NCBI RefSeq assembly: GCF_056712565.1
Contig: NZ_CM160072.1
Length of the DNA: 64,000 bases
Reading direction: 5' to 3' (one strand)
Shown here: in pieces, positions 3,084-40,376 of the stretch
Position numbering within the stretch: the stretch's first letter is position 1
Layout of the letters: each line of letters opens with the position of its first letter
The notes under the pieces: model-generated
Told to the model about the DNA's origin: nothing
Databases searched by the model: none
Seen by the model: the letters and a program-made list of their open reading frames with translations, nothing else
Position numbers and translations under genes: made by a program

Positions 3084-3710
<627 letters not shown>

Positions 3711-3799
3711 CTAACTTCGCTTATTATGGGGATCAGTTTCAGGGTTTCAAGGGAAGCACTCACATTGTCATCAATCTTCGCAACAAGGACCTCGGAAAA

Positions 3800-4678
3800 A
3801 TGAATAATCATTTCAAGTGTATTGGCATTGTGGGACACCCACGGCACCCCACTGCACTGACAACACATGAAATGCTCTACCGCTGGCTGTGCACAAAAGG
3901 TTACGAGGTCATCGTTGAGCAACAAATCGCTCACGAACTGCAACTGAAGAATGTGAAAACTGGCACGCTCGCGGAGATTGGGCAACAGGCTGATCTCGCG
4001 GTTGTCGTTGGCGGCGACGGTAATATGCTGGGCGCGGCGCGCACGCTCGCGCGCTATGATATTAAAGTTATTGGAATCAACCGTGGCAACCTGGGTTTCC
4101 TGACTGACCTTGATCCCGATAACGCCCAGCAACAATTAGCCGATGTGCTGGAAGGCCACTACATCAGCGAGAAACGTTTTTTGCTGGAAGCGCAAGTCTG
4201 TCAGCAAGATTGCCAGAAACGCATCAGCACGGCGATTAACGAAGTGGTACTTCACCCTGGCAAAGTGGCGCATATGATTGAGTTCGAAGTGTATATCGAC
4301 GAGATCTTTGCGTTTTCGCAGCGTTCCGATGGACTGATTATTTCGACGCCAACAGGCTCCACCGCATATTCCCTCTCTGCGGGCGGTCCTATTCTGACAC
4401 CCTCTCTGGATGCGATTACCCTGGTGCCCATGTTCCCGCATACGTTGTCAGCACGACCACTGGTCATAAACAGCAGCAGCACGATCCGTCTACGTTTTTC
4501 GCATCGCCGTAACGACCTGGAAATCAGTTGCGACAGCCAGATAGCACTGCCGATTCAGGAAGGTGAAGATGTCCTGATTCGTCGCTGTGATTACCATCTG
4601 AATCTGATTCATCCGAAAGATTACAGTTATTTCAATACATTAAGCACCAAGCTCGGCTGGTCAAAAAAATTATTCTAA
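3800..4678 (+). CDS. nadK: NAD kinase
   Basis: 292 aa, [17 protein letters not shown]...[11 protein letters not shown] motif. Confidence 0.95.
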
Positions 4679-4763
4679 TTTTACGCCAGCCTCTTTACTG
4701 TATATAAAACCAGTTTATACTGTACACAATAACAGTAATGGTTTTTCATACAGGAAAACAACT

Positions 4764-6425
4764 ATGTTGGCACAACTGACCATCAGCAACTTTGCTATCG
4801 TTCGTGAGCTTGAGATTGATTTTCATAGCGGCATGACCGTAATAACTGGCGAGACCGGCGCGGGTAAATCTATTGCAATAGATGCCCTCGGCCTTTGTCT
4901 CGGTGGTCGCGCTGAAGCCGACATGGTGCGTACCGGCGCTGCTCGTGCCGACCTGTGCGCCCGTTTTTCTCTGAAAGATACGCCAGCGGCCCTGCGTTGG
5001 CTGGAAGAAAACCAGCTTGAAGACGGGCATGAATGTTTGCTTCGTCGCGTAATCAGCAGCGATGGTCGCTCCCGTGGTTTCATCAACGGTACAGCTGTTC
5101 CTCTGTCACAACTGCGCGAACTGGGTCAGTTGCTGATTCAGATCCATGGTCAGCACGCTCATCAGTTACTCACCAAACCCGAGCACCAAAAATTCCTGCT
5201 TGATGGCTATGCCAATGAAACCTCTCAGCTCCAGGAAATGACCGCACGTTATCAGTTGTGGCATCAAAGCTGCCGTGACCTCGCGCATCATCAGCAGTTA
5301 AGTCAGGAACGCGCCGCCCGTGCGGAGCTGCTGCAATACCAATTAAAAGAACTTAACGAATTTAATCCGCAGCCTGGAGAGTTTGAGCAAATCGACGAAG
5401 AGTACAAACGTCTGGCGAACAGCGGTCAATTGCTGACCACCAGCCAGAATGCATTGGCATTAATGGCTGACGGTGAAGACGCAAATCTGCAAAGTCAACT
5501 TTACACGGCTAAACAACTGGTGAGCGAATTGATTGGCATGGACAGCAAACTGTCCGGCGTACTTGATATGCTGGAAGAGGCTACCATCCAGATTGCTGAA
5601 GCCAGTGATGAACTACGCCACTACTGCGATCGTCTGGATCTCGATCCCAACCGACTGTTTGAACTTGAACAGCGCATCTCAAAACAGATTTCGCTGGCAC
5701 GTAAACATCACGTCAGCCCTGAGGCATTGCCACAGTATTACCAGTCGCTACTGGAAGAACAGCAGCAACTGGACGATCAGGCCGACTCACAAGAAACGCT
5801 CGCGCTGGCGGTAACGAAACATCATCAGCAGGCACTGGAAACGGCGCGCGCGTTACACCAGCAACGCCAGCATTATGCAAATGAGTTGGCACAGCTGATC
5901 ACCGATAGTATGCATGCACTCTCTATGCCACATGGGCAGTTTACGATCGATGTTAAATTTGACGAGCATCACCTGGGCGCTGACGGCGCTGATCGTATTG
6001 AGTTTCGGGTAACCACCAACCCAGGTCAGCCAATGCAGCCTATTGCCAAAGTCGCATCCGGTGGTGAGTTGTCCCGCATCGCATTGGCAATCCAGGTCAT
6101 TACCGCGCGTAAAATGGAAACCCCGGCACTGATTTTTGATGAAGTGGATGTAGGGATTAGCGGCCCAACAGCGGCAGTTGTCGGCAAACTGCTACGTCAA
6201 CTTGGCGAATCAACTCAGGTGATGTGTGTTACCCACCTGCCACAAGTCGCGGGATGTGGTCATCAACACTATTTTGTCAGCAAAGAAACCGATGGTGCGA
6301 TGACAGAAACGCATATGCAATCCCTGGATAAAAAAGCGCGGTTACAAGAGTTGGCGCGCCTGCTTGGTGGCAGTGAAGTCACACGTAACACACTGGCGAA
6401 TGCGAAAGAACTGCTTGCGGCGTAA
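4764..6425 (+). CDS. recN: DNA repair protein RecN
   Basis: 553 aa, [37 protein letters not shown] Walker A, coiled-coil middle, SMC-like C-terminus. Confidence 0.95.
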
Positions 6426-6573
6426 ACTTTTTTCCTGCTTCACGGTCAGAGTAAACAGCAAAACGCCGTAAGACCGGAAAGCAAAAGGTTTTAAAGTGAT
6501 GAAAGGTCTATTATCATCGGCATATTACAGATGAGCCACGTACTGCTCGGGCCCGAAAAGGAATCAAATCACT

Positions 6574-6915
6574 ATGCGCTGTAAAACGCTGACTGCTGCA
6601 GCAGCAGTACTATTGATGTTGACCGCAGGCTGTTCCACTCTGGAGCGAGTGGTTTACCGTCCTGACATCAACCAGGGGAACTATCTGACCGCTAACGACG
6701 TATCCAAAATACGTGTTGGCATGACGCAACAACAAGTTGCGTACGCATTGGGTACACCGCTGATGTCCGATCCATTTGGTACAAATACCTGGTTCTATGT
6801 CTTCCGCCAGCAACCTGGTCATGAAGGTGTAACGCAGCAAACGCTGACGCTGACCTTTAACAGTAGCGGTGTGTTGACCAACATTGATAACAAACCTGCG
6901 CTGAGTGGTAACTAA
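6574..6915 (+). CDS. bamE: Outer membrane protein assembly factor BamE (SmpA)
   Basis: 113 aa with lipoprotein signal ([11 protein letters not shown]). Confidence 0.9.
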
Positions 6916-6940
6916 TAATAAAGTTGCTCTCAAAGACGTT

Positions 6941-6970
6941 AAAAAAGGTGCTCAATGAGCACCTTTTTTC
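6941..6970. terminator. Bidirectional rho-independent terminator between bamE and ratB
   Basis: aaaaaaggtgctcaatgagcaccttttttc: perfect hairpin flanked by A-run and T-run. Confidence 0.6.
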
Positions 6971-6976
6971 TGTCTG

Positions 6977-7264
6977 TTATTTATTCGCTGATTTTTCTGC
7001 TCGTTGCCTGCGAAGCTCTTTCGGATCGGCAATGAGAGGACGATAAATCTCCACCCGATCGCCATCATGCACAATATCGCTGAGTTTTGCCGGACGGCTG
7101 TAAATGCCGACTTTGTTTTTAGTTAAATCGATATCGGTACGCAATTCCAGCAAACCACTGGCGCGAATAGCTTCTTCAACCGTCGCGCCCTCCTGCAACG
7201 TCACGCGCTGCAGGTACTGCTTCTCAGGTAGCGCATAAGCCACCTCAACGGCAATTTTACCTGG
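6977..7264 (-). CDS. ratB: RatB (YfjF, UPF0125)
   Basis: Translation (V)[26 protein letters not shown]...; probable GTG start, the ORF track extends further upstream. Confidence 0.8.
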
Positions 7265-7733
7265 CACTGTAGACCTCTTTTGCACGAACAGTAAAAGCCT
7301 GCACCATATTAGCTGCCAGCTCTTTAAACACACGACCAAAGGCGAGTTCAATCAACTTATTGGTAAACTCAAAGTCGAGATGAAACTCAATACGGCACGC
7401 GTCCTGGCTCAACGGCGTAAACTTCCAACCGCCGATCAATTTCTTAAACGGTCCATCAACCAGACTCATGAGAATACTTTGATTACTGGTCAACTGGTTG
7501 CGGGTTGTAAACGTTTTGCTGATCCCAGCCTTAGACACATCTACCGCAGCAGTCATCTGCCCAGGAGTGGACTCCAGAATCCGACTTCCGGTACAACCCG
7601 GCAAAAACTGAGGATAAGACTGAACGTCATTCACTAACTGATACATTTGCTCCGCGCTGTAGGGCACCAGTGCGGTCCGGCTAATCTGAGGCATAACAAT
7701 TTCCATCAACAAAAATCCAACAAATAATATCAT
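7257..7733 (-). CDS. ratA: Ribosome association toxin RatA (YfjG, SRPBCC family)
   Basis: 158-aa [50 protein letters not shown]... Confidence 0.9.
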
Positions 7734-7864
7734 TTATCCTGCTGTAAAAAAAACGCTATCCCGGCGCTGGGTAACATCGGGTTCATGCTAAGATAGAGCC
7801 TTGTCCCCCGCAGGATTGATATGGGGTGTTTTCGATTTCAGATTACCGATGATTCACGACGCTT

Positions 7865-8347
7865 ATGACGAAGAAAAAAGCACATAAACCTGGTTCAGCG
7901 ACCATCGCGCTTAACAAGCGCGCCCGTCACGAATACTTTATCGAAGAAGAGTTCGAAGCGGGACTTGCCCTGCAAGGCTGGGAGGTTAAATCCCTGCGCG
8001 CAGGAAAAGCCAATATCAGCGACAGCTATGTCCTTCTGCGCGACGGAGAGGCATTTCTGTTTGGCGCTAACATCACGCCAATGGCTGTGGCCTCCACGCA
8101 TGTGGTGTGCGATCCTACCCGTACCCGCAAGTTACTTCTCAACCAGCGCGAACTGGACTCATTGTACGGTCGCGTCAATCGAGAAGGCTATACCGTAGTG
8201 GCGCTCTCCCTGTACTGGAAAAATGCCTGGTGCAAAGTGAAAATCGGCGTCGCCAAAGGTAAGAAACAGCACGATAAACGTTCAGATATCAAAGAACGCG
8301 AATGGCAGGTGGATAAAGCGCGTATCATGAAAAATGCCCACCGTTAA
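7865..8347 (+). CDS. smpB: SsrA-binding protein SmpB
   Basis: 160 aa, [51 protein letters not shown]... Confidence 0.95.
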
Positions 8348-12219: not shown

Positions 12220-13044
<825 letters not shown>

Positions 13045-13620: not shown

Positions 13621-14044
13621 GCTAAAACTTTCGTTCAGGAAACTCTGAATGATACCTGAGAGTCTACTGAAGAGTTGTTTGTTCACTAGTTAGCACGTAG
13701 GAAATCATTCAATACTCGCACTATCGGAAGTTCACCAGCCAGTCGTAGCACGTCCTTGCAAACGACGTGCCTACGGTTTCAATCACCTCTCACCATCAAT
13801 TCTATCAATAATAATTAAACAGCGCCTAGACAAAATAAATAACAACAAGTCAACAACCTCGACAGGATGCCGATGGGATGATGAAGAGATAAGAAAGAAT
13901 AACCAGTAAAGCCCTAAAACGTCAGCGTTCAGACGCGTTTTTTACTTAATCGGTAACAAATACGTTGTATCATAGCAAAATAAAATGATTGTTCTAAATC
14001 AGATTAACTCCTCACTTTTGTACAATGTCGCTTACAGGTATACC

Positions 14045-15934
14045 ATGAAATCCGAGACGCTAACTGTCCAACAACTTTTTCAAGACCGCCGACAATACTG
14101 TGTTCCATTCTATCAACGTGCCTATGTATGGACTCAGCAAGACCAGTGGTCAGCTCTACTGGAGGATATCCTAGAGAAAGTACAATCCCGGCTCTCGGGT
14201 ACAAAACCAACTCCCCATTTCCTTGGTGCGGTTGTACTGGAACCTCAATCAAAAAAAGGATTATTAGGTGTAGATTCCATACATATTATTGATGGTCAGC
14301 AACGATTGACCACTCTTCAATATGTTCTGGCATCCATCCGATTAGCATTACGTGCTACGGATCTTTCCAGCTTAGAGGCTCTCATTTCGCCTTGCCTGAA
14401 AAACTCAAACGAAGACACAATGCGAAATAAAGAAGTAGAACGCTTCAAACTGTGGCCAACTTTTCGGGATCAAACTCATTTTATTCAAAGTTTTAATGTT
14501 GAAAATATTGACGATCTCCGGGACGTATTCTCTGATAGTTTCACGCAGCATGGTACGTTGCGTAAGCATTTTAATCACCCGCCATCACTAGAAGCATTAT
14601 GTTTTTTTACTGAAGCCTTTATAAAATGGATTAAAATAGAAAACCACTCACCACAAGAAAATGCTGTAGCTCTAATTGAGGCTGTCTTAACAGATCTGAA
14701 ACTGGTAAGCATATTTCTCGAAGCTGAAGATGATGCCCAAATAATTTTTGAAACATTAAATGGGCGAGGGGCGGAACTTCATGCTACGGATCTTATTCGC
14801 AACTATATCTTTATGTGCGCTGAGCATGAAAATATTAATGCTATTGAATTATATGAAAATGAGTGGAAGAGCTTTGAAGATAAATACTGGTCGGAAAAAC
14901 AACGCCGTGGACGTATTAATAAACCACGCATGGAGTGGCTAGTACATGCGACATTGCAATCAGAAAGGCAACGTGAAATTGATCTGTCTCGCCTTTACAA
15001 TGAGTATCGTGATTATGTAAGTAAGGACTTGTCTTCACAACGAGCAGATCTGCAAGTAAAGCGCCTCAAACAATATGCATCACAATATAAAGAATTGGTT
15101 GATGGTTTTGGCACAACCCCCATCTCACACTTTGGATATCGCATCGCAGACTATGATGTGACGACACTTTATCCGCTTGCTTTGTTCATTTCGATAGCTA
15201 ACATCGCTGATGATGAGAAAGCAGCCATGTATAATGATCTTGTCTCCTACGTAGTACGAAGAGCCGTATGTGGCCTGACGCCAAAGAATTACAACAATGT
15301 ATTTATGAATGTATTGCGGCACTTGGCTAAAACGGAAATTTCCAGTGTTGAGTTACGTAATATCCTCAATAACTTAAATGGCGAAGCCTCACGTTGGCCT
15401 GGTGACTCAGAATTTCTCAACGCTTGCATCAATGCTCCACTTTATCCTGGCAGGCTCGACGCACCGAAAATGCGCTCAATGTTAACGGAACTTGAAAGAG
15501 AACTTTGTCGCCAAGTAAAGACAGAAAAGCCTGATGTTCCAAATCTTTCTAATCTCGATATCGATCATCTTATGCCTCAAAGTTGGTATTCCTGTTGGCC
15601 TCTCGAAAATGGTCGTATGGTGACAAATTCAGATGCTACGGTATTGAACCAAATTGTTCTGTCTGGAACCGATCTTACCCCTGAACAGCTACTGGTAAGG
15701 AAACGGCAACAAGCGATATCTACTTTGGGAAATCTAACTTTGCTTAACCTTAGCGTAAACCGTTCTGTTCAGAATGCTGTATTTCTGAAAAAACGTGATG
15801 CTCTCATCGTCCACACCAATCTACGACTGAACATTCCACTTATAGTTAAGGATAAATGGGATGAGGATGAAATCCTGGAGCGGGGTAAAAAGTTGGGGGA
15901 AATTGCATTGAAAGTATGGCCAAAACACGATTAA
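14045..15934 (+). CDS. Type IV restriction endonuclease, GmrSD-like (N-terminal DUF262/ParB-like, C-terminal DUF1524/HNH-like)
   Basis: N-terminal DGQQRLTTL motif; C-terminal DIDHLMPQSW...N motif; start taken at MKSETLTVQQLF; AT-rich gene. Confidence 0.75.
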   Translation: MKSETLTVQQLFQDRRQYCVPFYQRAYVWTQQDQWSALLEDILEKVQSRLSGTKPTPHFLGAVVLEPQSKKGLLGVDSIHIIDGQQRLTTLQYVLASIRLALRATDLSSLEALISPCLKNSNEDTMRNKEVERFKLWPTFRDQTHFIQSFNVENIDDLRDVFSDSFTQHGTLRKHFNHPPSLEALCFFTEAFIKWIKIENHSPQENAVALIEAVLTDLKLVSIFLEAEDDAQIIFETLNGRGAELHATDLIRNYIFMCAEHENINAIELYENEWKSFEDKYWSEKQRRGRINKPRMEWLVHATLQSERQREIDLSRLYNEYRDYVSKDLSSQRADLQVKRLKQYASQYKELVDGFGTTPISHFGYRIADYDVTTLYPLALFISIANIADDEKAAMYNDLVSYVVRRAVCGLTPKNYNNVFMNVLRHLAKTEISSVELRNILNNLNGEASRWPGDSEFLNACINAPLYPGRLDAPKMRSMLTELERELCRQVKTEKPDVPNLSNLDIDHLMPQSWYSCWPLENGRMVTNSDATVLNQIVLSGTDLTPEQLLVRKRQQAISTLGNLTLLNLSVNRSVQNAVFLKKRDALIVHTNLRLNIPLIVKDKWDEDEILERGKKLGEIALKVWPKHD

Positions 15935-35417: not shown

Positions 35418-35768
35418 TCACTTCAGTCGTTCACGGGCCGTCTTCGCCTTATGACACGGCCAGCACAGGCTCTGCAGATTGCAGTCTGCATCAGTGCCGC
35501 CATGCGCTTTAGGGATGATGTGGTCAACGGTTTTCGCCTCACGCACCACACCGACATGCAGGCACAACTGACACAGGCCTTTGTCACGCTTCAGCACGCG
35601 CGCGCGGATAACATCCCACTTCGAACCGTAGCCGCGCTGGTGACGGGATTGTCCTGGCTTGTATTGTTTCCAGCCTTCGCTTTTGTGGCTTTCACAATAG
35701 CCTGACGGATCAGTGGTGGTTTGGCGGCAGCCGCGAACGCGGCAGGCTTTTGGGGTTCGTGGGGGCAT
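35418..35768 (-). CDS. HNH endonuclease (terminase-associated)
   Basis: 116 aa with CxxC ... DHIIPKAHGG ... N ... CWPCH motifs. Confidence 0.75.
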   Translation of the reverse strand: MPPRTPKACRVRGCRQTTTDPSGYCESHKSEGWKQYKPGQSRHQRGYGSKWDVIRARVLKRDKGLCQLCLHVGVVREAKTVDHIIPKAHGGTDADCNLQSLCWPCHKAKTARERLK

Positions 35769-35870
35769 TTAAAGTGGGATCTAACTCTAATAATTTAAAA
35801 AATTTAATTGGGTCTTGATATTAATCACATAGACTCAATGCTCTTTAGTTCTTACATAGGTGGTTGTATT

Positions 35871-36311
35871 ATGAGTATCCCCAGTTTAGATGTTCATAAA
35901 GTTGTTAAGTGCGCAGAGCATAAAAAGGCTTTAGATGCAATATCTCTCAAACTTAAGAATAACATTATTGACTCAAGCTCTGAATACGATTTTCTTGGCG
36001 ACACAATAATTTTCAATAAAGATAAAAAAAATAGGTTAACCCTCAAACTTTCAACATATGAACTAGAACTTATTTTCAAAGAAACACTGCTAGTCATTGA
36101 TGAAGCTCCTGTATTGAAGTTTGCTGCCATTGACCCAACCGATGAAAATAACAACGAGCTGATTGATTTATTTTTATCCAAAGGTGGATTTATTTATATT
36201 AGAGAATACAAATCCGAGCCACATTATGAGTATGGCGACACTTCTCTATTTTTACATATACTTGACGCTACTCTTAAAGAGCTTAAATCTGCAAACAAAA
36301 TATCCTATTAA
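35871..36311 (+). CDS. Hypothetical protein (AT-rich moron)
   Basis: ORF on the opposite strand to the flanking structural genes; start taken at MSIPSLDVH; strongly AT-rich. Confidence 0.45.
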   Translation: MSIPSLDVHKVVKCAEHKKALDAISLKLKNNIIDSSSEYDFLGDTIIFNKDKKNRLTLKLSTYELELIFKETLLVIDEAPVLKFAAIDPTDENNNELIDLFLSKGGFIYIREYKSEPHYEYGDTSLFLHILDATLKELKSANKISY

Positions 36312-36417
36312 ATAAATTTTTGCTAACATAGCCCCGCGCCATGACAAGATTTTCTGTTCTAGATGCAAGGGCTATGTGTGAATATCTATAAACAAAAACC
36401 CCATCCGGTGATTTTTG

Positions 36418-36669
36418 TCATTTTTTAGCCATCTCAATTGCGGCATCAAAAAGTCGTTCAAGAATAAAATCAGGGTACTGTAATTTTTCTTGCTCGATAT
36501 GAAGCTCATAAATTTTCCCTTCCCACTCCCATTTAAAATTAAATCCAGAAGCAGAAGGTGCGAAATGTGTTTTAGCTTTAGGGTTAGCGTAACCAGCAAC
36601 AGTCAACACATCAAACTTAAAATCTTGAGGTTTAATACGCATAATCATATCCTTTGCCAAGTTCATCAT
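36418..36669 (-). CDS. Small hypothetical protein (moron)
   Basis: 83-aa ORF, AT-rich. Confidence 0.4.
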   Translation of the reverse strand: MMNLAKDMIMRIKPQDFKFDVLTVAGYANPKAKTHFAPSASGFNFKWEWEGKIYELHIEQEKLQYPDFILERLFDAAIEMAKK

Positions 36670-36739
36670 TATTCTTCGCGATTATAAAACAATGAATAAA
36701 ATCATTAAAGCATAGACGTTAAATATCCTCAAAATGTGA

Positions 36740-37177
36740 TTAGTTGGGACATTGCGTCCTGATATACTCCTGCAAGTAATTGACCTGTGAGGTTATCTTG
36801 TCGATTCCACTTCGGAGACGGTAATAATGGAGTTCAGCATCTGCTGTAAGTCTAGGGCTTTCTCCATCGCCCATGCCGCTGGCTCCGGTCGTTGACTTTG
36901 TACAGGTGGCGGCGACTTGCAGGCGCTTATGCCCAGCAGAAACATCAGCACGAAGACTTTCGATAGTCGCATTAGCATCAGCAAGCTCCTTTGTATATCT
37001 GGCATCGAGTTCAGCTACATTACGTTGACGCTTCTGCATATCAGCGATGATGGATGTGGCTTTATCGCGCTGTACTTTGTAGACGATGGCGTCATCACGG
37101 TAATTATCAACAGCCCATGACAAGCAGACGATGATGCAGATAACCAGAGCGGATATAATCACCGTTACTCTGCTCAT
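36740..37177 (-). CDS. i-spanin Rz
   Basis: [23 protein letters not shown]... closely resembles lambda Rz. Confidence 0.8.
36793..36981 (-). CDS. o-spanin Rz1 (lipoprotein embedded in Rz in another frame)
   Basis: [20 protein letters not shown] lipobox followed by Pro-rich sequence. Confidence 0.65.
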
Positions 37178-37650
37178 ACCTGAATCTCTTTGACCGTTCC
37201 GCCGGCTTCTTTGAATTTTGCAATCAGGCTGTCAGCCTTATGCTCAAACTGACCATAACCAGCTCCCGGCAGTGAAGCCCAGATATTGCTGCAACGGTCG
37301 ATAGCCTGACGAATATCACCGCGATCAATCATCGGTAAAGCACCACGCTCTTTAATCTGCTGCAGTGCAACAGCATCCTGGCTTTTTGGAGAGAAGTCTT
37401 TCAGTCCAAGCTGTTTACGGTATGCATCCCACCAGCGGGAAAGAAGCTGGTAGCGCCCGGCAGCCGTTGATTTGAGTTTTGGGTTTAGCGTGACAAGTCT
37501 GCGAGGGTGATCGGAGTAATCAGTGAATATTTCTCCGCCCACAATGACGTCATAACCATGATTACGTGTCGGTTGTAGCCCATTATCCGTTCCTTCTGAC
37601 CAGGCCACCATATCGAGGAAAGCTTTACGCTGAGGATTAAGATTTTGCAT
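37174..37650 (-). CDS. Endolysin, lambda R-like lytic transglycosylase
   Basis: [18 protein letters not shown]...[10 protein letters not shown]...[18 protein letters not shown]... near-identical to lambda R as recalled. Confidence 0.9.
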
Positions 37651-38041
37651 TTTTCACCCCTGTCAGTCGTTCCCAGAAGTACGTCAGTGCAACCGAACCC
37701 ATCGCACCACTAATCCCCGCAGTTGCGAGAATCATGTAAATACTGAATCCACTTTCGATACTGATTAGGCCACCAATAACACCGGTGAATCCTGATACAA
37801 CTATCTGAGCGAGGGCATTTATCCAGCTCCACGTTGCTTTACTCTGCTTCACATCAATCAGGTAACGGACAAGCCCCCCCCAACCTGCGATGATCAGCAA
37901 AACAAGCCAGAACGCTCCGGCAAGATTCTCTTTTTCGTGCATATGAATAGCCGCAGTTTCGCCTCCGACAGAAAATCGGAGCGTGAAATGATATGTTGAT
38001 TTATTATTAATTCGAAAATTACATTCTAATTCATCAGGCAT
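37637..38041 (-). CDS. Holin (3 predicted TM segments); true start may be internal
   Basis: Three hydrophobic helices, immediately upstream of the endolysin. Confidence 0.6.
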   Translation of the reverse strand: MPDELECNFRINNKSTYHFTLRFSVGGETAAIHMHEKENLAGAFWLVLLIIAGWGGLVRYLIDVKQSKATWSWINALAQIVVSGFTGVIGGLISIESGFSIYMILATAGISGAMGSVALTYFWERLTGVKNAKS

Positions 38042-38093
38042 TGATGATTTTATAATAATAAAGGCCGTTCGTTACGGCCTTTATTATTGATAT

Positions 38094-38429
38094 TTATTTT
38101 ACATCCCAAGGTAGTTCCTCAAGAGAGAAGACTAATTCATTATCAATAATTTCGTATTCTGCATAACCTTCAACCTCTCCTGAGAAGTTATTGTCAACGC
38201 ATCCTTCATAATAGCTATATGGTGCTATAAAGTGAAACCCATATTCATCTATCTCTGTGATTTCAAAATTGTAGTAATCGTAAGAATATCGAATATCATC
38301 ATCAGAAATAGAACTAAGTACATAGTTATTAAATTTATCGGAATGCTTAACGATAAGTTCTGACAACGCGTCAAGATTCTCTGGAGAGATATTTCCTAAC
38401 GGTAATCTGTACTCAACGGCATTAATCAT
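38094..38429 (-). CDS. Highly acidic, Tyr-rich hypothetical protein (111 aa), first gene of the late transcript
   Basis: About 24 Asp/Glu versus 5 Lys/Arg; lies between the tR'-like terminator and the holin. Confidence 0.45.
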   Translation of the reverse strand: MINAVEYRLPLGNISPENLDALSELIVKHSDKFNNYVLSSISDDDIRYSYDYYNFEITEIDEYGFHFIAPYSYYEGCVDNNFSGEVEGYAEYEIIDNELVFSLEELPWDVK

Positions 38430-38481
38430 ACAACCTCCTTTTTAACTGATATGAGGTTATATAATGTGTTTCAGTACAAGT

Positions 38482-38508
38482 AAATAAAAACCCGCTCAAC
38501 AGCGGGTT
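38482..38508 (-). terminator. tR'-like rho-independent terminator downstream of the late promoter
   Basis: Minus strand reads aacccgctgttgagcgggtt followed by TTTTTATTT. Confidence 0.5.
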
Positions 38509-38554
38509 CGTGAAAATTATCAACGGCAGACATACAAAGCCCATCGTTGAGAAA

Positions 38555-38583
38555 ATCTTATCCATATTTTTTGAAAAATGCAA
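38555..38583 (-). promoter_or_regulatory. Candidate late promoter (pR'-like) downstream of Q
   Basis: Minus strand TTGCAT-N17-TAAGAT about 30 bp after the Q stop and ~45 nt before the terminator. Confidence 0.35.
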
Positions 38584-38614
38584 GCTTCATGTCACTATCT
38601 TCGGCGAAAATCAC

Positions 38615-39367
38615 TTATCTCGTCACCTTTCTCAATTGTGTTTCAGCATATGCTTCTTCCTGCCAGCACTTTGTTACTAGTTTATCAATTACGTCTGCAT
38701 ATCCTTTGTACCACTGATAATCAGTCAGGTCTGGAACCAGCTTCTGGACATGACGTCGTGCCAGTGTAGTCGGTAAACGGCTAAACCGGTTTCCATTGCA
38801 ACGCCCACAAGTCTTATAAACAGGCGTGCCATGAAGCCGGGTTCTTTTTTCATCCAGGACAATACCTTTACCCTTACACCCTCTGCACGCCGTGCTGACT
38901 TCTCCCTTGCCATGACAATGCTGACACAGTTCCTTCACCCACTCTTCTTTGATAACGGATTCCCCGCTTCTGGAATGTTTCACCACTTCGCGCAATACAT
39001 TATGAAATCCAGTACCAGTACAATGCTCACAGCGAGCCTTACTTGCCGCAGACCTGGAATAATCAGCAAAGGCAAAATTCACAAGGTAAGGGATGATCTG
39101 TAACCGGGTTTCTTCACTCAATTTGTTCAATGTCGGGTTATCCAGTGCCATCGCGTAATTGAGCAGGCCTTCAATCGCAAACTGAGGATCCTGAACACCA
39201 ACTTTTGCCAGGAATAAGGCAAACCCAAGCGGTGCTTTCGACTGCACCATCCCCTGCGCAGCCATTACATCCGTAATTGTTAAACCACCCGAGCCTGTCG
39301 CCGATGCGTCATCGCTCAATTTTGGAGATTTTGGGGAGTAATATTTCGGTAAGGCTTCAAGGTTCAT
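38615..39367 (-). CDS. Antitermination protein Q (multi-CxxC, phage 21/82-type)
   Basis: Start at MNLEALPKYY; C-terminal CEHCTGTG...CQHCHGKG...CRGCKGKG...CGRCNG zinc-binding motifs; position before the lysis genes. Confidence 0.65.
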   Translation of the reverse strand: MNLEALPKYYSPKSPKLSDDASATGSGGLTITDVMAAQGMVQSKAPLGFALFLAKVGVQDPQFAIEGLLNYAMALDNPTLNKLSEETRLQIIPYLVNFAFADYSRSAASKARCEHCTGTGFHNVLREVVKHSRSGESVIKEEWVKELCQHCHGKGEVSTACRGCKGKGIVLDEKRTRLHGTPVYKTCGRCNGNRFSRLPTTLARRHVQKLVPDLTDYQWYKGYADVIDKLVTKCWQEEAYAETQLRKVTR

Positions 39368-39380
39368 GCTCGTTCTCCAC

Positions 39381-40376
39381 TTACACCAGTACGCCAATTG
39401 CCAGCGCACGATCGATAAAACGAAATATCAGCTCCAGCTGGGAGCCATACATCTCTTCAAATGCCACGGTATCCGCATGCAGCTCGTCGTGATGCTTTCT
39501 GCACAAAGGCAACACAAAAAGGTCATGCGCTTTTGTACCCATTCCACCCTGTCCGTGGCCTATCAGGTGGTGGGGATCATCAGCGGGCTTTCCACAACAT
39601 GCACACGACTGTGTCTTAACCCAGCGCGTGTACTTTTCATTAACCCAGCGGCGACGTTTTGGGCGTAACATAAAAGACTCCGGCGACTCCGGATCCACTT
39701 TCAGCGCCAGCACCTTTTTCGCCTTATCCTGGATGATGCTGGTGGCAGGAACCGAAGGCACAAGGTCACTTTCCCGGGTGACAGACGGCACAACAGGCTT
39801 CGGTAATCTCAGTGCCTTACGGGCTGCACTTTCCGGTAAGGCATCCGCCAGATCATTACGAACCAGCCACCAGCACAGTTCCGGCATTGTCACAACGTGA
39901 CTGTCATCAAAACCGAGATCCCGACGCACAACAGACAACACCCAGCGGGCACAGTTATCCGTTGCCATTGATTCCAGCCGTTCCGTGAACTGATCGCGAA
40001 GCAGGTTATCGCAGTGCCAGCACAGACGGATTGCGCCCGGCGCGTGTCGCATTGTGGTCATGTTCTCGCTGTGCCATCCGGAATGAGGCCACTGACAGCC
40101 CTTTTCACGAAGTAACCAGCTTTCAAGACATTCCACACCCCCCGCACGACGAATAACTGCCTCATTGCGGAACACGGCCCGAATGGCAGGATCATCCGCC
40201 AGCGGTTGTGATGCCGCCGGAACGGCACCACTGGCAAAAGATGAATAACGTTCCGGCTCAGGCTCCAGCAGGACACGCCCCTGCATAAACAGGGGCATCA
40301 GCTCTGAACCGGGCCTGAACAATACGATCCCCATACGCGGGGCAATTTCAGGGGTCAGTAGTGCTCTCACGGTCAC
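39381..40376 (-). CDS. DUF968-family phage protein
   Basis: 331 aa; C-terminal Cys/His-rich region (CACCGKPADDPHHL...CRKHHDELH); Nin-region position. Confidence 0.55.
   Translation of the reverse strand: MTVRALLTPEIAPRMGIVLFRPGSELMPLFMQGRVLLEPEPERYSSFASGAVPAASQPLADDPAIRAVFRNEAVIRRAGGVECLESWLLREKGCQWPHSGWHSENMTTMRHAPGAIRLCWHCDNLLRDQFTERLESMATDNCARWVLSVVRRDLGFDDSHVVTMPELCWWLVRNDLADALPESAARKALRLPKPVVPSVTRESDLVPSVPATSIIQDKAKKVLALKVDPESPESFMLRPKRRRWVNEKYTRWVKTQSCACCGKPADDPHHLIGHGQGGMGTKAHDLFVLPLCRKHHDELHADTVAFEEMYGSQLELIFRFIDRALAIGVLV

What the first reader, a model, noticed from the sequence alone, without database searches (positions are those of the whole stretch)
38094..38429. Highly acidic, tyrosine-rich 111-aa protein as first gene of the late (Q-dependent) transcript
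Net charge about -19 (14 Glu + 10 Asp versus 5 Lys/Arg) with 12 Tyr, encoded immediately after the pR'/tR'-like elements and before the holin. Strongly acidic small phage proteins are frequently DNA mimics (anti-restriction, anti-defence) or immunity-type proteins. Its late expression would fit a function protecting progeny or modulating lysis.
Basis: inference. Interest (0 to 1): 0.45.

Follow-up and report, generated by a model that had tools for sequence, protein, structure and literature searches.

The report
Acidic orphan protein cassette before holin
A real, conserved 111-residue, very acidic protein of unknown function sits on a small self-contained gene cassette inserted between the late-gene switch (Q) and the lysis genes of an E. 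coli prophage; relatives hold the same slot in prophages across the enterobacteria, so it is a good but unproven candidate for a host- or phage-protecting inhibitor.

Summary
Window 38094..38429 (- strand) encodes a 111-aa protein with 14 Glu, 10 Asp, 3 Lys, 2 Arg and 12 Tyr (net -19, pI 4.05). It is the most acidic and most Tyr-rich of 78 gene-like ORFs in the window.

It is a real gene under purifying selection and belongs to PHROG 13663, annotated "unknown function". It has no Pfam, NCBIfam, PADLOC or PDB relative.

It lies on a ~0.5 kb, 33% GC cassette (leader, strong Shine-Dalgarno, ORF, terminator). The cassette sits exactly between the Q/pR'/tR' module and the holin module.

The family is restricted to Enterobacterales and is acidic throughout (-9 to -20). 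In at least 13 of 21 sequence clusters it lies after a Q antiterminator and before the holin, although Q and holin belong to several unrelated families. Five clusters are solitary chromosomal genes with no phage neighbours.

Function is unresolved. My best guess, at about 0.3, is a stoichiometric acidic inhibitor or decoy of a basic nucleic-acid-binding protein. A lysis-regulating role is unlikely. Interest is moderate.

The parts
38615..39409 (-). Q antiterminator gene. The longest ORF is 264 aa from a GTG; RefSeq aa, 38615..39367. It is not part of the cassette but defines the slot.
   Evidence: PF03589 Antiterm E 3.1e-54 and phrog_127 E 1e-108. Annotated 'antitermination protein' in identical E. 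coli records. About 85% identical to K-12 Qin ydfT/quuQ.
38555..38583 (-). pR'-like late promoter: TTGCAT (38583..38578), 17 nt spacer, TAAGAT (38560..38555). It belongs to the Q module.
   Evidence: Read from the sequence. Conserved in the homologous Qin region of K-12 in alignment A4. It falls below the 9/12 threshold of the consensus scan, which instead flags GTGACA-18-AAAAAT at 38595..38566. Function is inferred.
38479..38509 (-). tR'-like intrinsic terminator: GAACCCGCTGTTGAGCGGGTTT followed by a T-run. It is the last element of the Q module.
   Evidence: Terminator scan. Homology to Qin-type Q modules in about 2000 E. coli genomes stops just 3' of it, at window ~38475-38487.
37975..38486 (-). 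Inserted low-GC cargo cassette: leader, ORF and terminator. The outer limits are set by the homology breakpoints.
   Evidence: GC is 31-36% against 50% for the window. The right breakpoint is window 37974, where homology to prophages with the same holin begins. An 'empty slot' relative, E. coli AR_0055, has Q followed directly by the same holin.
38456..38484 (-). Weak promoter-like element TTTACT-17-TATAAC (38484..38479 and 38461..38456) between tR' and the gene. Status uncertain.
   Evidence: Both hexamers are conserved and the spacer has diverged in the Salmonella and Citrobacter copies, which have TTTACA-17-TATAAC. The scan does not call it. The -10-like hexamer lacks the final T and also forms the left arm of the leader hairpin, so its conservation may have that cause instead.
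38425..38465 (-). Leader hairpin: a 13-bp stem that pairs 38465..38453 with 38437..38425, so it covers the 3' part of the Shine-Dalgarno, the AUG and codon 2.
   Evidence: MFE and centroid structure -13.7 kcal/mol; z -1.86, with 12 of 200 shuffles folding as well. All 11 core pairs are kept in the 3 distinct sequences of this subfamily, with one compensatory change, which is not significant at n=3. Across 16 prophage cassettes the start codon is more paired than in 94 control start sites (median P(unpaired) 0.26 vs 0.58, p 7e-4). Tentative.
38094..38429 (-). The 111-aa acidic, Tyr-rich protein gene (RefSeq WP_000606308.1, PHROG 13663).
38053..38089 (.). Bidirectional intrinsic-terminator hairpin (AAAGGCCG-loop-CGGCCTTT with A/T runs on both sides), 13 nt after the stop codon and before the holin.
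   Evidence: Terminator scan on the + strand and my own scan on the - strand. An equivalent terminator 13-44 nt after the stop is present in 17 of 19 homologous loci examined.
37637..37942 (-). Holin gene (101 aa as in RefSeq), the first gene of the lysis cassette. It is not part of the cassette but defines the slot.
   Evidence: PF16083 E 1.5e-21 and phrog_785 E 1e-39; RefSeq annotation.

Best explanation
The gene is the cargo of a compact moron-type cassette (leader, strong ribosome-binding site, ORF, own terminator) inserted exactly between tR' of the Q module and the holin.

Shown:
- The product is a soluble, single-domain alpha+beta protein (beta1-alpha1-alpha2-beta2..beta6).
- One sheet face is hydrophobic and the other is acidic, and the strong negative charge is conserved across the family.

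Inferred:
- It acts as a stoichiometric binder: an acidic decoy or nucleic-acid mimic that occupies the basic, DNA- or RNA-binding surface of another protein, most likely a nuclease or another DNA-acting enzyme.
- It is made at a low level in the lysogen, from terminator read-through and/or a weak cassette promoter. Its own terminator shields the lysis genes from that transcription.
- It is made in bulk as the first product of the Q-antiterminated late transcript.
- The leader hairpin over the start codon probably throttles or conditions its translation.

The target, and whether the benefit goes to the phage (counter-defence during the lytic cycle) or to the cell (immunity or protection), is not determined.
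For: Cassette anatomy and insertion:
- GC 33% vs 50%.
- Homology breakpoints lie at the end of tR' and just upstream of the holin.
- An empty-slot relative exists.
- Terminators flank the gene here and in most relatives: upstream in 14/19 loci, downstream in 17/19.

Position is conserved while the flanks are not. The gene follows Q proteins of PF03589, PF06576/PF06530, PF06323 and unassigned types. It precedes holins of PF16083, PF16931+PF05449, PF04971/PF16080 and PF05106.

The charge is a family trait: net -9 to -20 in all 25 representatives. Conserved acidic positions are D45, D79, D104 and E105, and residues alternate hydrophobic/acidic along the strands.

The protein is folded and globular: pLDDT 83, pTM 0.71 with a 50-sequence alignment. 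No signal peptide or hydrophobic segment is visible in the sequence.

It is under purifying selection.

Neighbours hint at DNA-directed functions. A PF01555 DNA methyltransferase is adjacent in three clusters. A DNA/RNA non-specific endonuclease is adjacent in the Pectobacterium cluster.

From established knowledge: small, very acidic phage proteins with solved mechanisms (Ocr, ArdA, Ugi, Arn, T7 gp5.9, AcrIIA4, AcrF2) mostly act this way.
Against: - There is no structural or sequence similarity to any known DNA mimic, anti-defence protein or immunity family.
- No candidate target is identified, and no partner gene is consistently adjacent.
- The endonuclease neighbour occurs in one lineage only and is separated from the gene by a terminator.
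- Late expression is the wrong time for classical anti-restriction.
- Solitary chromosomal copies are hard to reconcile with a purely phage-serving counter-defence.
- Nothing about expression has been measured.
Confidence: 0.3

Rival explanations
1. Orphan immunity or lysogenic-conversion protein. It is made in the lysogen and neutralises an incoming toxin from competitors, for example a nuclease domain of a colicin, CDI or T6SS effector. The prophage carries it as a benefit to its host. This overlaps in mechanism with the best explanation (an acidic inhibitor) but assigns the benefit to the cell and the target to an exogenous toxin.
For: - Intact, conserved solitary copies lie in ordinary chromosomal neighbourhoods in Erwinia (two species), Cedecea, a Klebsiella sp. 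and others.
- Its own terminator and moron architecture imply expression independent of Q.
- Its small size, acidity and fast sequence divergence (25-45% identity between genera) are typical of nuclease immunity proteins (general knowledge: Im7/Im9, barstar, NuiA).
- In Pectobacterium prophages it sits directly upstream of a PF01223 endonuclease.
Against: - No cognate toxin is adjacent in the window or in most loci.
- No Pfam immunity family matches.
- Confinement to the Q-holin slot in at least 13 clusters is not expected for a generic immunity moron.
- No convincing sigma-70 promoter is found in the window's cassette.
- The start codon is sequestered in a hairpin.
Confidence: 0.2
2. Small-molecule binder or 'sponge'. 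The NTF2-like cone and the many conserved aromatic residues form a pocket that sequesters a metabolite or an immune signalling nucleotide, in the manner of Tad1, Tad2 or Acb2. The negative charge would be incidental.
For: - The only fold resemblance found is to NTF2-like/SnoaL-like ligand-binding proteins.
- Nearly invariant residues are F33, Y48, C77, Y92 and W108, plus the G76-C77-x-D79-x-N81 loop.
- The protein has 19 aromatic residues in 111.
Against: - At 111 aa with two helices it is small for an NTF2 cone.
- Family-wide conservation of net charge is then unexplained.
Confidence: 0.12
3. Virion-assembly helper or packaged internal protein. It would be an acidic chaperone or cargo made at the start of late transcription, used in head or DNA-packaging steps or injected with the DNA to protect it in the next host.
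For: It is first in the late operon with a strong ribosome-binding site. It is co-located with late methyltransferases that protect progeny DNA.
Against: - The family occurs with several unrelated packaging and head modules: P27-type/HK97-like, lambda GpA-type and Terminase_3.
- It also occurs in chromosomes without any phage genes.
- It is absent from all 50,697 isolated phage genomes searched.
Confidence: 0.07
4. Lysis-timing regulator: a cytoplasmic antiholin that binds the basic C-terminal tail of the holin.
For: It lies immediately upstream of the holin in most loci. Its charge is opposite to the typically basic holin tails (general knowledge).
Against: - The neighbouring holins belong to at least 4 (4-5) Pfam holin families.
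- A terminator separates the gene from the holin.
- In several loci other genes lie in between.
- Chromosomal copies have no holin nearby.
- The protein has no membrane or periplasmic targeting.
Confidence: 0.04

Closest known systems
Cargo genes of the Q-to-holin slot of lambdoid prophages (stxAB in Stx phages; cspB/cspF in the K-12 Qin prophage)
   Same: The insertion point is the same: directly after pR'/tR' and before the holin. Expression is therefore expected to rise sharply when Q acts. The Qin prophage has a homologous Q/pR'/tR' module, and its homology to the window ends exactly where the cargo begins.
   Different: The product is unrelated: a cytoplasmic acidic protein with no signal peptide and no known activity. 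It always carries its own terminator, and in many copies a hairpin over the start codon.
Morons in the sense of Hendrix and colleagues (e.g. lambda bor and lom, HK97 gp15)
   Same: It is a single extra gene of deviant base composition with its own terminator, lying between two genes that are adjacent in related phages.
   Different: An autonomous promoter is not established. Only a weak TTTACT-17-TATAAC is present in this copy, and a conserved TGnCATAA(T/C) element in other subfamilies. Unlike most morons, the family keeps one and the same slot across very different phage backbones.
DNA-mimic inhibitors (T7 Ocr, ArdA, PBS2 Ugi, T4 Arn, T7 gp5.9, AcrIIA4/AcrF2)
   Same: It is small and soluble, with very high negative charge density (21.6% Asp+Glu, pI 4.05). 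It is phage-borne, and the charge is conserved across the family.
   Different: It has no sequence or fold similarity to any of them. It is expressed late rather than immediately after DNA entry, some copies are chromosomal, and no binding partner is known.
NTF2-like / cystatin-like alpha+beta rolls, a fold class that includes some polymorphic-toxin immunity proteins and VirB8-like domains
AtiEcA of phage phi80, a counter-defence gene embedded in the Q-dependent late operon (PMC11364771)
   Same: It is a small accessory protein whose expression is tied to the Q-controlled late transcript, which gives a precedent for late-operon self-protection genes.
   Different: It occupies a different slot (upstream of the packaging genes, after lysis). 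Tblastn of the window protein against 50,697 phage genomes found nothing. Ati is paired with an opposite-strand defence gene, whereas this gene has no such partner next to it.

Membership tests
PHROG 13663 (phage protein family of unknown function) | Full-length match to the family HMM | tested here: met
   E 9.4e-54, residues 1-111 on profile positions 1-111. All 50 homologues of alignment A7 match the same PHROG.
Moron (autonomous accessory cassette in a phage genome) | Lies between two genes that are adjacent in related phages | tested here: met
   E. coli AR_0055 prophage has the same holin (92% identity) directly after its Q gene with no cargo. Homology breakpoints are at window ~38475-38487 and ~37974.
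Moron (autonomous accessory cassette in a phage genome) | Base composition differs from the surrounding genome | tested here: met
   GC 33% for the ORF and 31-36% for the cassette, against 50% for the window and 45-49% for the flanking Q and lysis genes.
Moron (autonomous accessory cassette in a phage genome) | Own transcription terminator downstream | tested here: met
   A hairpin with a T-run at 38053..38089, 13 nt after the stop. Present in 17 of 19 homologous loci.
Moron (autonomous accessory cassette in a phage genome) | Own promoter upstream | tested here: inconclusive
   The consensus scan finds none between tR' and the ATG. A weak TTTACT-17-TATAAC is conserved in the three closest relatives, but it overlaps the leader hairpin arm. 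No expression data are available.
Q-dependent late gene | Same strand as, and downstream of, Q, a late promoter and its terminator, with no intervening gene | tested here: met
Q-dependent late gene | Transcription requires Q-mediated antitermination | not testable with these tools
   This needs RNA measurements with and without Q or induction.
DNA-mimic anti-restriction/anti-defence proteins | High density of surface Asp/Glu | tested here: met
   24 acidic residues of 111, net -19. Net -9 to -20 in all family representatives.
DNA-mimic anti-restriction/anti-defence proteins | Sequence or structural relationship to a known mimic | tested here: not met
DNA-mimic anti-restriction/anti-defence proteins | Carboxylates arranged like the phosphates of B-DNA; binds the DNA site of a target enzyme | not testable with these tools
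Polymorphic-toxin / bacteriocin immunity proteins | Encoded next to (normally just downstream of) a cognate toxin gene | tested here: not met
   No toxin gene is adjacent in the window or in most loci. Only the Pectobacterium cluster has a PF01223 nuclease downstream, and a terminator lies between the two genes. An orphan-immunity role is not excluded.
Polymorphic-toxin / bacteriocin immunity proteins | Match to a described immunity family | tested here: not met
   No Pfam or NCBIfam family matches any of 25 members.
Antiholins / lysis regulators | Membrane or periplasmic localisation, and association with one particular holin family | tested here: not met
   There is no hydrophobic segment in the sequence. 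Holins of at least 4 (4-5) Pfam holin families neighbour it, and some copies have none nearby.
NTF2-like fold superfamily | Confident structural superposition on members | tested here: inconclusive

The most novel reading that the evidence does not exclude
The family is a new class of late-operon 'first responder': an acidic decoy made before any structural protein. It would switch off a host or prophage-borne nuclease-type immune system, one that would otherwise be triggered by late events (packaging, capsid or terminase sensing), when the prophage itself is induced. The prophage-borne candidates are the GmrSD and PD-T4-3 systems carried by this same prophage. The start-codon hairpin would act as a conditional translational gate. 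The chromosomal copies would then be domesticated regulators of such systems.
Probability: 0.1. Interest if true: 0.75.

Novelty: new member of a known kind. Interest (0 to 1): 0.4.

Why it matters
The gene is present in about 130 of 5,426 complete E. coli genomes, including well-known ExPEC/APEC ST95-type strains (S88, IHE3034, UM146, NU14, APEC O18) and the type strain. Relatives are common in Klebsiella, Salmonella, Enterobacter, Citrobacter and plant-pathogenic Pectobacterium and Erwinia.

It occupies the same slot that carries Shiga toxin in Stx phages. A slot-faithful, charge-conserved, single-gene cassette with no known function is a compact and cheap target for anti-defence, defence or immunity screens.

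If it proves to be an inhibitor of a nuclease or immune system, it would add a new fold to the list of acidic decoys. It would also show that the Q-holin gap is a dedicated site for such functions. If it is merely one more orphan moron, nothing changes.

Tried and rejected
- **Profile libraries.** Pfam, NCBIfam, PADLOC and PHROG scans of the protein and of 25-50 family members found only the function-less PHROG 13663.
- **PDB sequence searches.** Profiles A1 and A2 gave nothing below E 0.18.
- **Spurious profile hits.** The 1.84-billion-representative search gave two long repeat proteins, P0019 (DUF11 repeats) and P0029, which I rejected.
- **Nuclease-inhibitor idea.** The Endonuclease_NS neighbour occurs in one lineage only and has a terminator between the two genes, so I downgraded this idea.
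- **Own sigma-70 promoter.** It is not called by the scan. The conserved TATAAC hexamer is equally well explained as the anti-Shine-Dalgarno arm of the leader hairpin.
- **Covariation test of the hairpin.** Within the closest subfamily it is uninformative, with only 3 distinct sequences.
- **Rfam.** No family matched in 35500..39500.
- **Literature.** Searches by accession, PHROG id and topic found no paper on this protein.
- **Isolated phage genomes.** Tblastn of three family members against 50,697 genomes found no match.
- **Not attempted.** I considered a fused-chain co-folding test with a candidate partner. I did not run it because the tool returns no interface metrics.

Full report

Yes. 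The - strand ORF 38094..38429 starts with ATG and encodes 111 residues. Its composition is 14 Glu, 10 Asp, 3 Lys, 2 Arg and 12 Tyr, giving net charge -19, pI 4.05 and 13.0 kDa.

Among 78 non-overlapping gene-like ORFs of the window it is both the most acidic per residue and the most Tyr-rich. A near-perfect Shine-Dalgarno (AAGGAGGT) lies 5 nt upstream of the ATG.

It is a genuine gene:
- RefSeq annotates it as hypothetical protein WP_000606308.1 in 130 complete E. coli genomes that are 99-100% identical over the region.
- Full-length homologues exist at 25-72% identity.
- Against the Salmonella copy, synonymous sites are saturated (pS 0.82) while pN is 0.17. Between the Salmonella and Citrobacter copies, dN/dS is 0.26.

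**2. Surroundings in the window**

The window is an E. coli prophage with a lambdoid early and late-control region, an HK97-type head and a contractile tail, next to ssrA. On the - strand the order is as follows:

| Element | Coordinates | Evidence |
|---|---|---|
| DUF968 gene | upstream of Q | |
| Q antiterminator (PF03589) | 38615..39367 | |
| Promoter-like TTGCAT-17-TAAGAT | 38583..38555 | |
| Short leader and terminator hairpin | 38509..38488 | |
| The acidic ORF | 38429..38094 | |
| Second, bidirectional terminator hairpin | 38089..38053 | |
| Holin (PF16083) | 37942..37637 | |
| Endolysin, Rz/Rz1 | downstream of the holin | |

The ORF and its flanks have 31-36% GC, against 50% for the window.

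Homology to the Q/pR'/tR' module of the K-12 Qin prophage and about 2000 other genomes runs through the terminator and stops at 38475-38487. Homology to prophages with the same holin starts at 37974.

One such prophage, in E. coli AR_0055, has the holin directly after its Q gene with nothing in between.

So the finding is the cargo of a ~0.5 kb insertion placed exactly between tR' and the holin module. This is the site where Stx phages carry stx and where Qin carries csp genes.

**3. The family**

A profile search of 1.84 billion representative proteins found 26 hits. Two were repeat-protein artefacts; the rest are about 110 aa long. A second profile search of the 5.8-billion set added more, all named 'hypothetical'.

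All 50 aligned members match PHROG 13663, annotated as unknown function. None matches Pfam, NCBIfam, PADLOC or any PDB sequence.

Named sources are all Enterobacterales: Escherichia, Shigella, Salmonella, Citrobacter, Enterobacter, Klebsiella, Hafnia/Obesumbacterium, Providencia, Pantoea, Duffyella, Pectobacterium, Erwinia and Cedecea.

Every representative is acidic, with net charge -9 to -20. Nearly invariant residues are F33, D45, Y48, C77, Y92, L103, D104, E105 and W108. They fall in the motifs Y-[FY]-x-G-C-x-D-x-N and L-D-E-[TL]-x-W.

Three family members used as tblastn queries found nothing in 50,697 isolated phage genomes. The family is therefore known only from prophages, viral contigs and chromosomes.

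**4. Conserved position, variable flanks**

I collected 61 loci, which fall into 21 clusters at 70% identity. In at least 13 clusters the gene lies after a Q-type antiterminator and before the holin.

- **Q proteins upstream:** PF03589, PF06576/PF06530, PF06323 and unassigned types.
- **Holins downstream:** PF16083, PF16931+PF05449, PF04971/PF16080 and PF05106.
- **Packaging modules:** these also differ between loci.

Nearly every copy is bracketed by intrinsic terminators. One lies 40-100 nt upstream in 14 of 19 loci, and one lies 13-44 nt after the stop in 17 of 19. All copies are lower in GC than their locus.

Extra cargo shares the slot in some lineages:
- A PF01555 DNA methyltransferase lies next to the gene in the Providencia, Hafnia and Klebsiella clusters.
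- A lipoprotein-type PF01223 endonuclease follows it in the Pectobacterium cluster, after a terminator.

Five clusters are solitary genes among ordinary chromosomal genes:
- between ttcA and dbpA;
- near a molybdopterin oxidoreductase and MFS/ABC transporter genes in Cedecea and a Klebsiella sp.;
- near a Wzy_C (O-antigen ligase family) gene in two Erwinia species.

These copies keep the invariant residues. Whatever the protein does, it can therefore be useful without any phage lysis or late-gene context.

**5. Regulation**

Being first after pR'/tR' supports high expression once Q acts, but that is an inference from position.

A Q-modified polymerase reads through terminators. The conserved terminator between the gene and the holin therefore only makes sense if unmodified polymerases also transcribe the gene. 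These could come from read-through at tR' or from a cassette promoter. The terminator would then keep that transcription out of the lysis genes.

A cassette promoter is not established. The scan finds none. A weak TTTACT-17-TATAAC is conserved in the three closest relatives while the spacer diverges. Other subfamilies share a TGnCATAA(T/C) element.

The TATAAC hexamer is also the left arm of a 13-bp hairpin (38465..38425) that pairs with part of the Shine-Dalgarno, the AUG and codon 2:
- Free energy is -13.7 kcal/mol and z is -1.86, so on its own it is marginal.
- In the closest subfamily all 11 core pairs are maintained, with one compensatory change, but only three distinct sequences exist.
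- Other subfamilies have different arm sequences that again pair with their own start region.
- Across 16 prophage cassettes the start codon is significantly more paired than in 94 control start sites from the same loci (median 0.26 vs 0.58, p 7e-4).
- Chromosomal copies lack this feature.

I regard a translational gate as likely but unproven.

**6. Structure**

With four sequences AlphaFold gave pLDDT 74. With 50 sequences it gave pLDDT 83 and pTM 0.71.

The topology is beta1 (3-10), alpha1 (19-28), alpha2 (30-41), a short strand (48-50), then four antiparallel strands (56-60, 64-73, 82-95, 98-105). Along the strands, hydrophobic and acidic or polar residues alternate, so one sheet face packs on the helices and the other is acidic.

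No DNA mimic, Acr, nucleotide sponge or immunity protein was among the hits.

**7. What it most likely does**

*Shown:* it is a real, conserved, soluble, acidic single-domain protein on an inserted cassette at a conserved late-operon position, with its own terminator.

*Inferred:* the charge is functional, and the protein acts by binding something basic.

By analogy with the solved small acidic phage proteins, my best explanation is a stoichiometric decoy or nucleic-acid mimic that blocks a DNA- or RNA-binding protein, probably a nuclease-type enzyme. It would be made at a low level in lysogens and in bulk at the onset of late transcription (confidence about 0.3).

Rival explanations:

| Rival | Confidence | Main points |
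|---|---|---|
| Orphan immunity for the cell | 0.2 | Differs mainly in who benefits; favoured by the chromosomal copies |
| Small-molecule sponge | 0.12 | Favoured by the fold class and conserved aromatics; does not explain the charge |
| Virion or assembly role | 0.07 | Weak given the variable partner modules |
| Lysis-timing role | 0.04 | Weak given the variable holins and the phage-free copies |

The remainder is 'something else'.

**8. Comparison with the known, and novelty**

As an element it is a typical moron in a well-known cargo slot. Three of the four defining features are met, and the promoter is inconclusive.

As a protein it is a member of an existing but function-less PHROG. It is not a member of any characterised family. 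Membership in the DNA-mimic, immunity and antiholin groups fails or cannot be tested (see the membership table).

I therefore rate it 'new member of a known kind'. The unusual points are three:
- fidelity to one slot across unrelated Q and holin modules;
- the family-wide conserved charge;
- the recurrent start-codon hairpin.

Interest is moderate (0.4). It is a well-defined, widespread, cheap-to-test candidate, but nothing here shows a surprising mechanism.

**9. Seen in passing**

- A second low-GC island (35650-36700) lies in the lambda 'bor' slot after Rz. It holds two orphan ORFs in the opposite-strand plus late-strand layout described for the phi80 Tai/Ati defence and counter-defence pair. 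This was not tested.
- The same prophage carries a GmrSD type IV restriction enzyme and a PD-T4-3 defence gene near its tail-fibre end.
- In Klebsiella the Q-holin gap is expanded to several kilobases of accessory genes, including a Panacea-domain antitoxin.

Noticed in passing
window 35650-36700: A second low-GC island (31-35% GC) lies between Rz/Rz1 and the HNH/terminase genes, in the slot where lambda carries bor and E. coli AR_0055 carries iss. It holds an ORF on the opposite strand (35808..36311 +, 167 aa; RefSeq aa, WP_000026993.1). It also holds a small ORF on the late-operon strand (36418..36669 -, 83 aa; RefSeq 74 aa, WP_001220676.1). Neither has a Pfam, PHROG, NCBIfam or PADLOC match. 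The layout resembles the phi80 Tai (defence, opposite strand) and Ati (counter-defence, late strand) pair of PMC11364771.
   Followed up: partly
window 38425-38465 (- strand): A 13-bp leader hairpin pairs an upstream AU-rich arm with part of the Shine-Dalgarno, the AUG and codon 2 of the acidic gene (-13.7 kcal/mol, z -1.86). Other subfamilies of the cassette have different arms that again cover their own start codon (AUG unpaired probability median 0.26 vs 0.58 in controls, p 7e-4). This may be a translational gate or thermosensor.
   Followed up: partly
window 13985-15934 (+) and 12220-13026 (-): The prophage's distal cargo includes a GmrSD-type type IV modification-dependent restriction enzyme (PF03235+PF07510; PADLOC mREase_IV, E 0). 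It also includes a GIY-YIG protein matching the PD-T4-3 defence model (E 9e-137). The same prophage therefore carries nuclease-type defences that it must itself tolerate when induced.
   Followed up: partly
L047-L049 (Klebsiella prophages), about 3460-7900 in locus coordinates: In Klebsiella the Q-to-holin gap is expanded to about 4.5 kb. It holds the acidic-protein homologue, a PF01555 DNA methyltransferase, a SocA/Panacea-domain protein with a partner ORF, a DNA pol III theta (HOT-like) homologue, and NMT1_3 and TerB-like proteins. This looks like an accessory or defence islet in the late leader.
   Followed up: no
L036, L038, L050, L051 (Pectobacterium prophages), about 4530-5400 in L050: A lipoprotein-signal DNA/RNA non-specific endonuclease (PF01223, 287-306 aa) lies between the acidic-protein cassette and the holin. 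It has its own upstream region, after the cassette's terminator.
   Followed up: partly
L052/L053, L054-L056, L057, L060-L062: Intact family members occur as solitary chromosomal genes away from any phage genes: between ttcA and dbpA; next to DUF4060 and TolA_C-domain mini-proteins in Cedecea and a Klebsiella sp.; and near a Wzy_C (O-antigen ligase family) gene in two Erwinia species.
   Followed up: partly
whole family vs the 'phages' collection: No member of the family was detectable by tblastn in 50,697 isolated phage genomes using three divergent queries. Yet it is common in prophages and in IMG/VR contigs. One 37.7-kb 'plasmid' record (NZ_CP081716.1) carries an identical copy and is probably the excised circular phage.
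   Followed up: no
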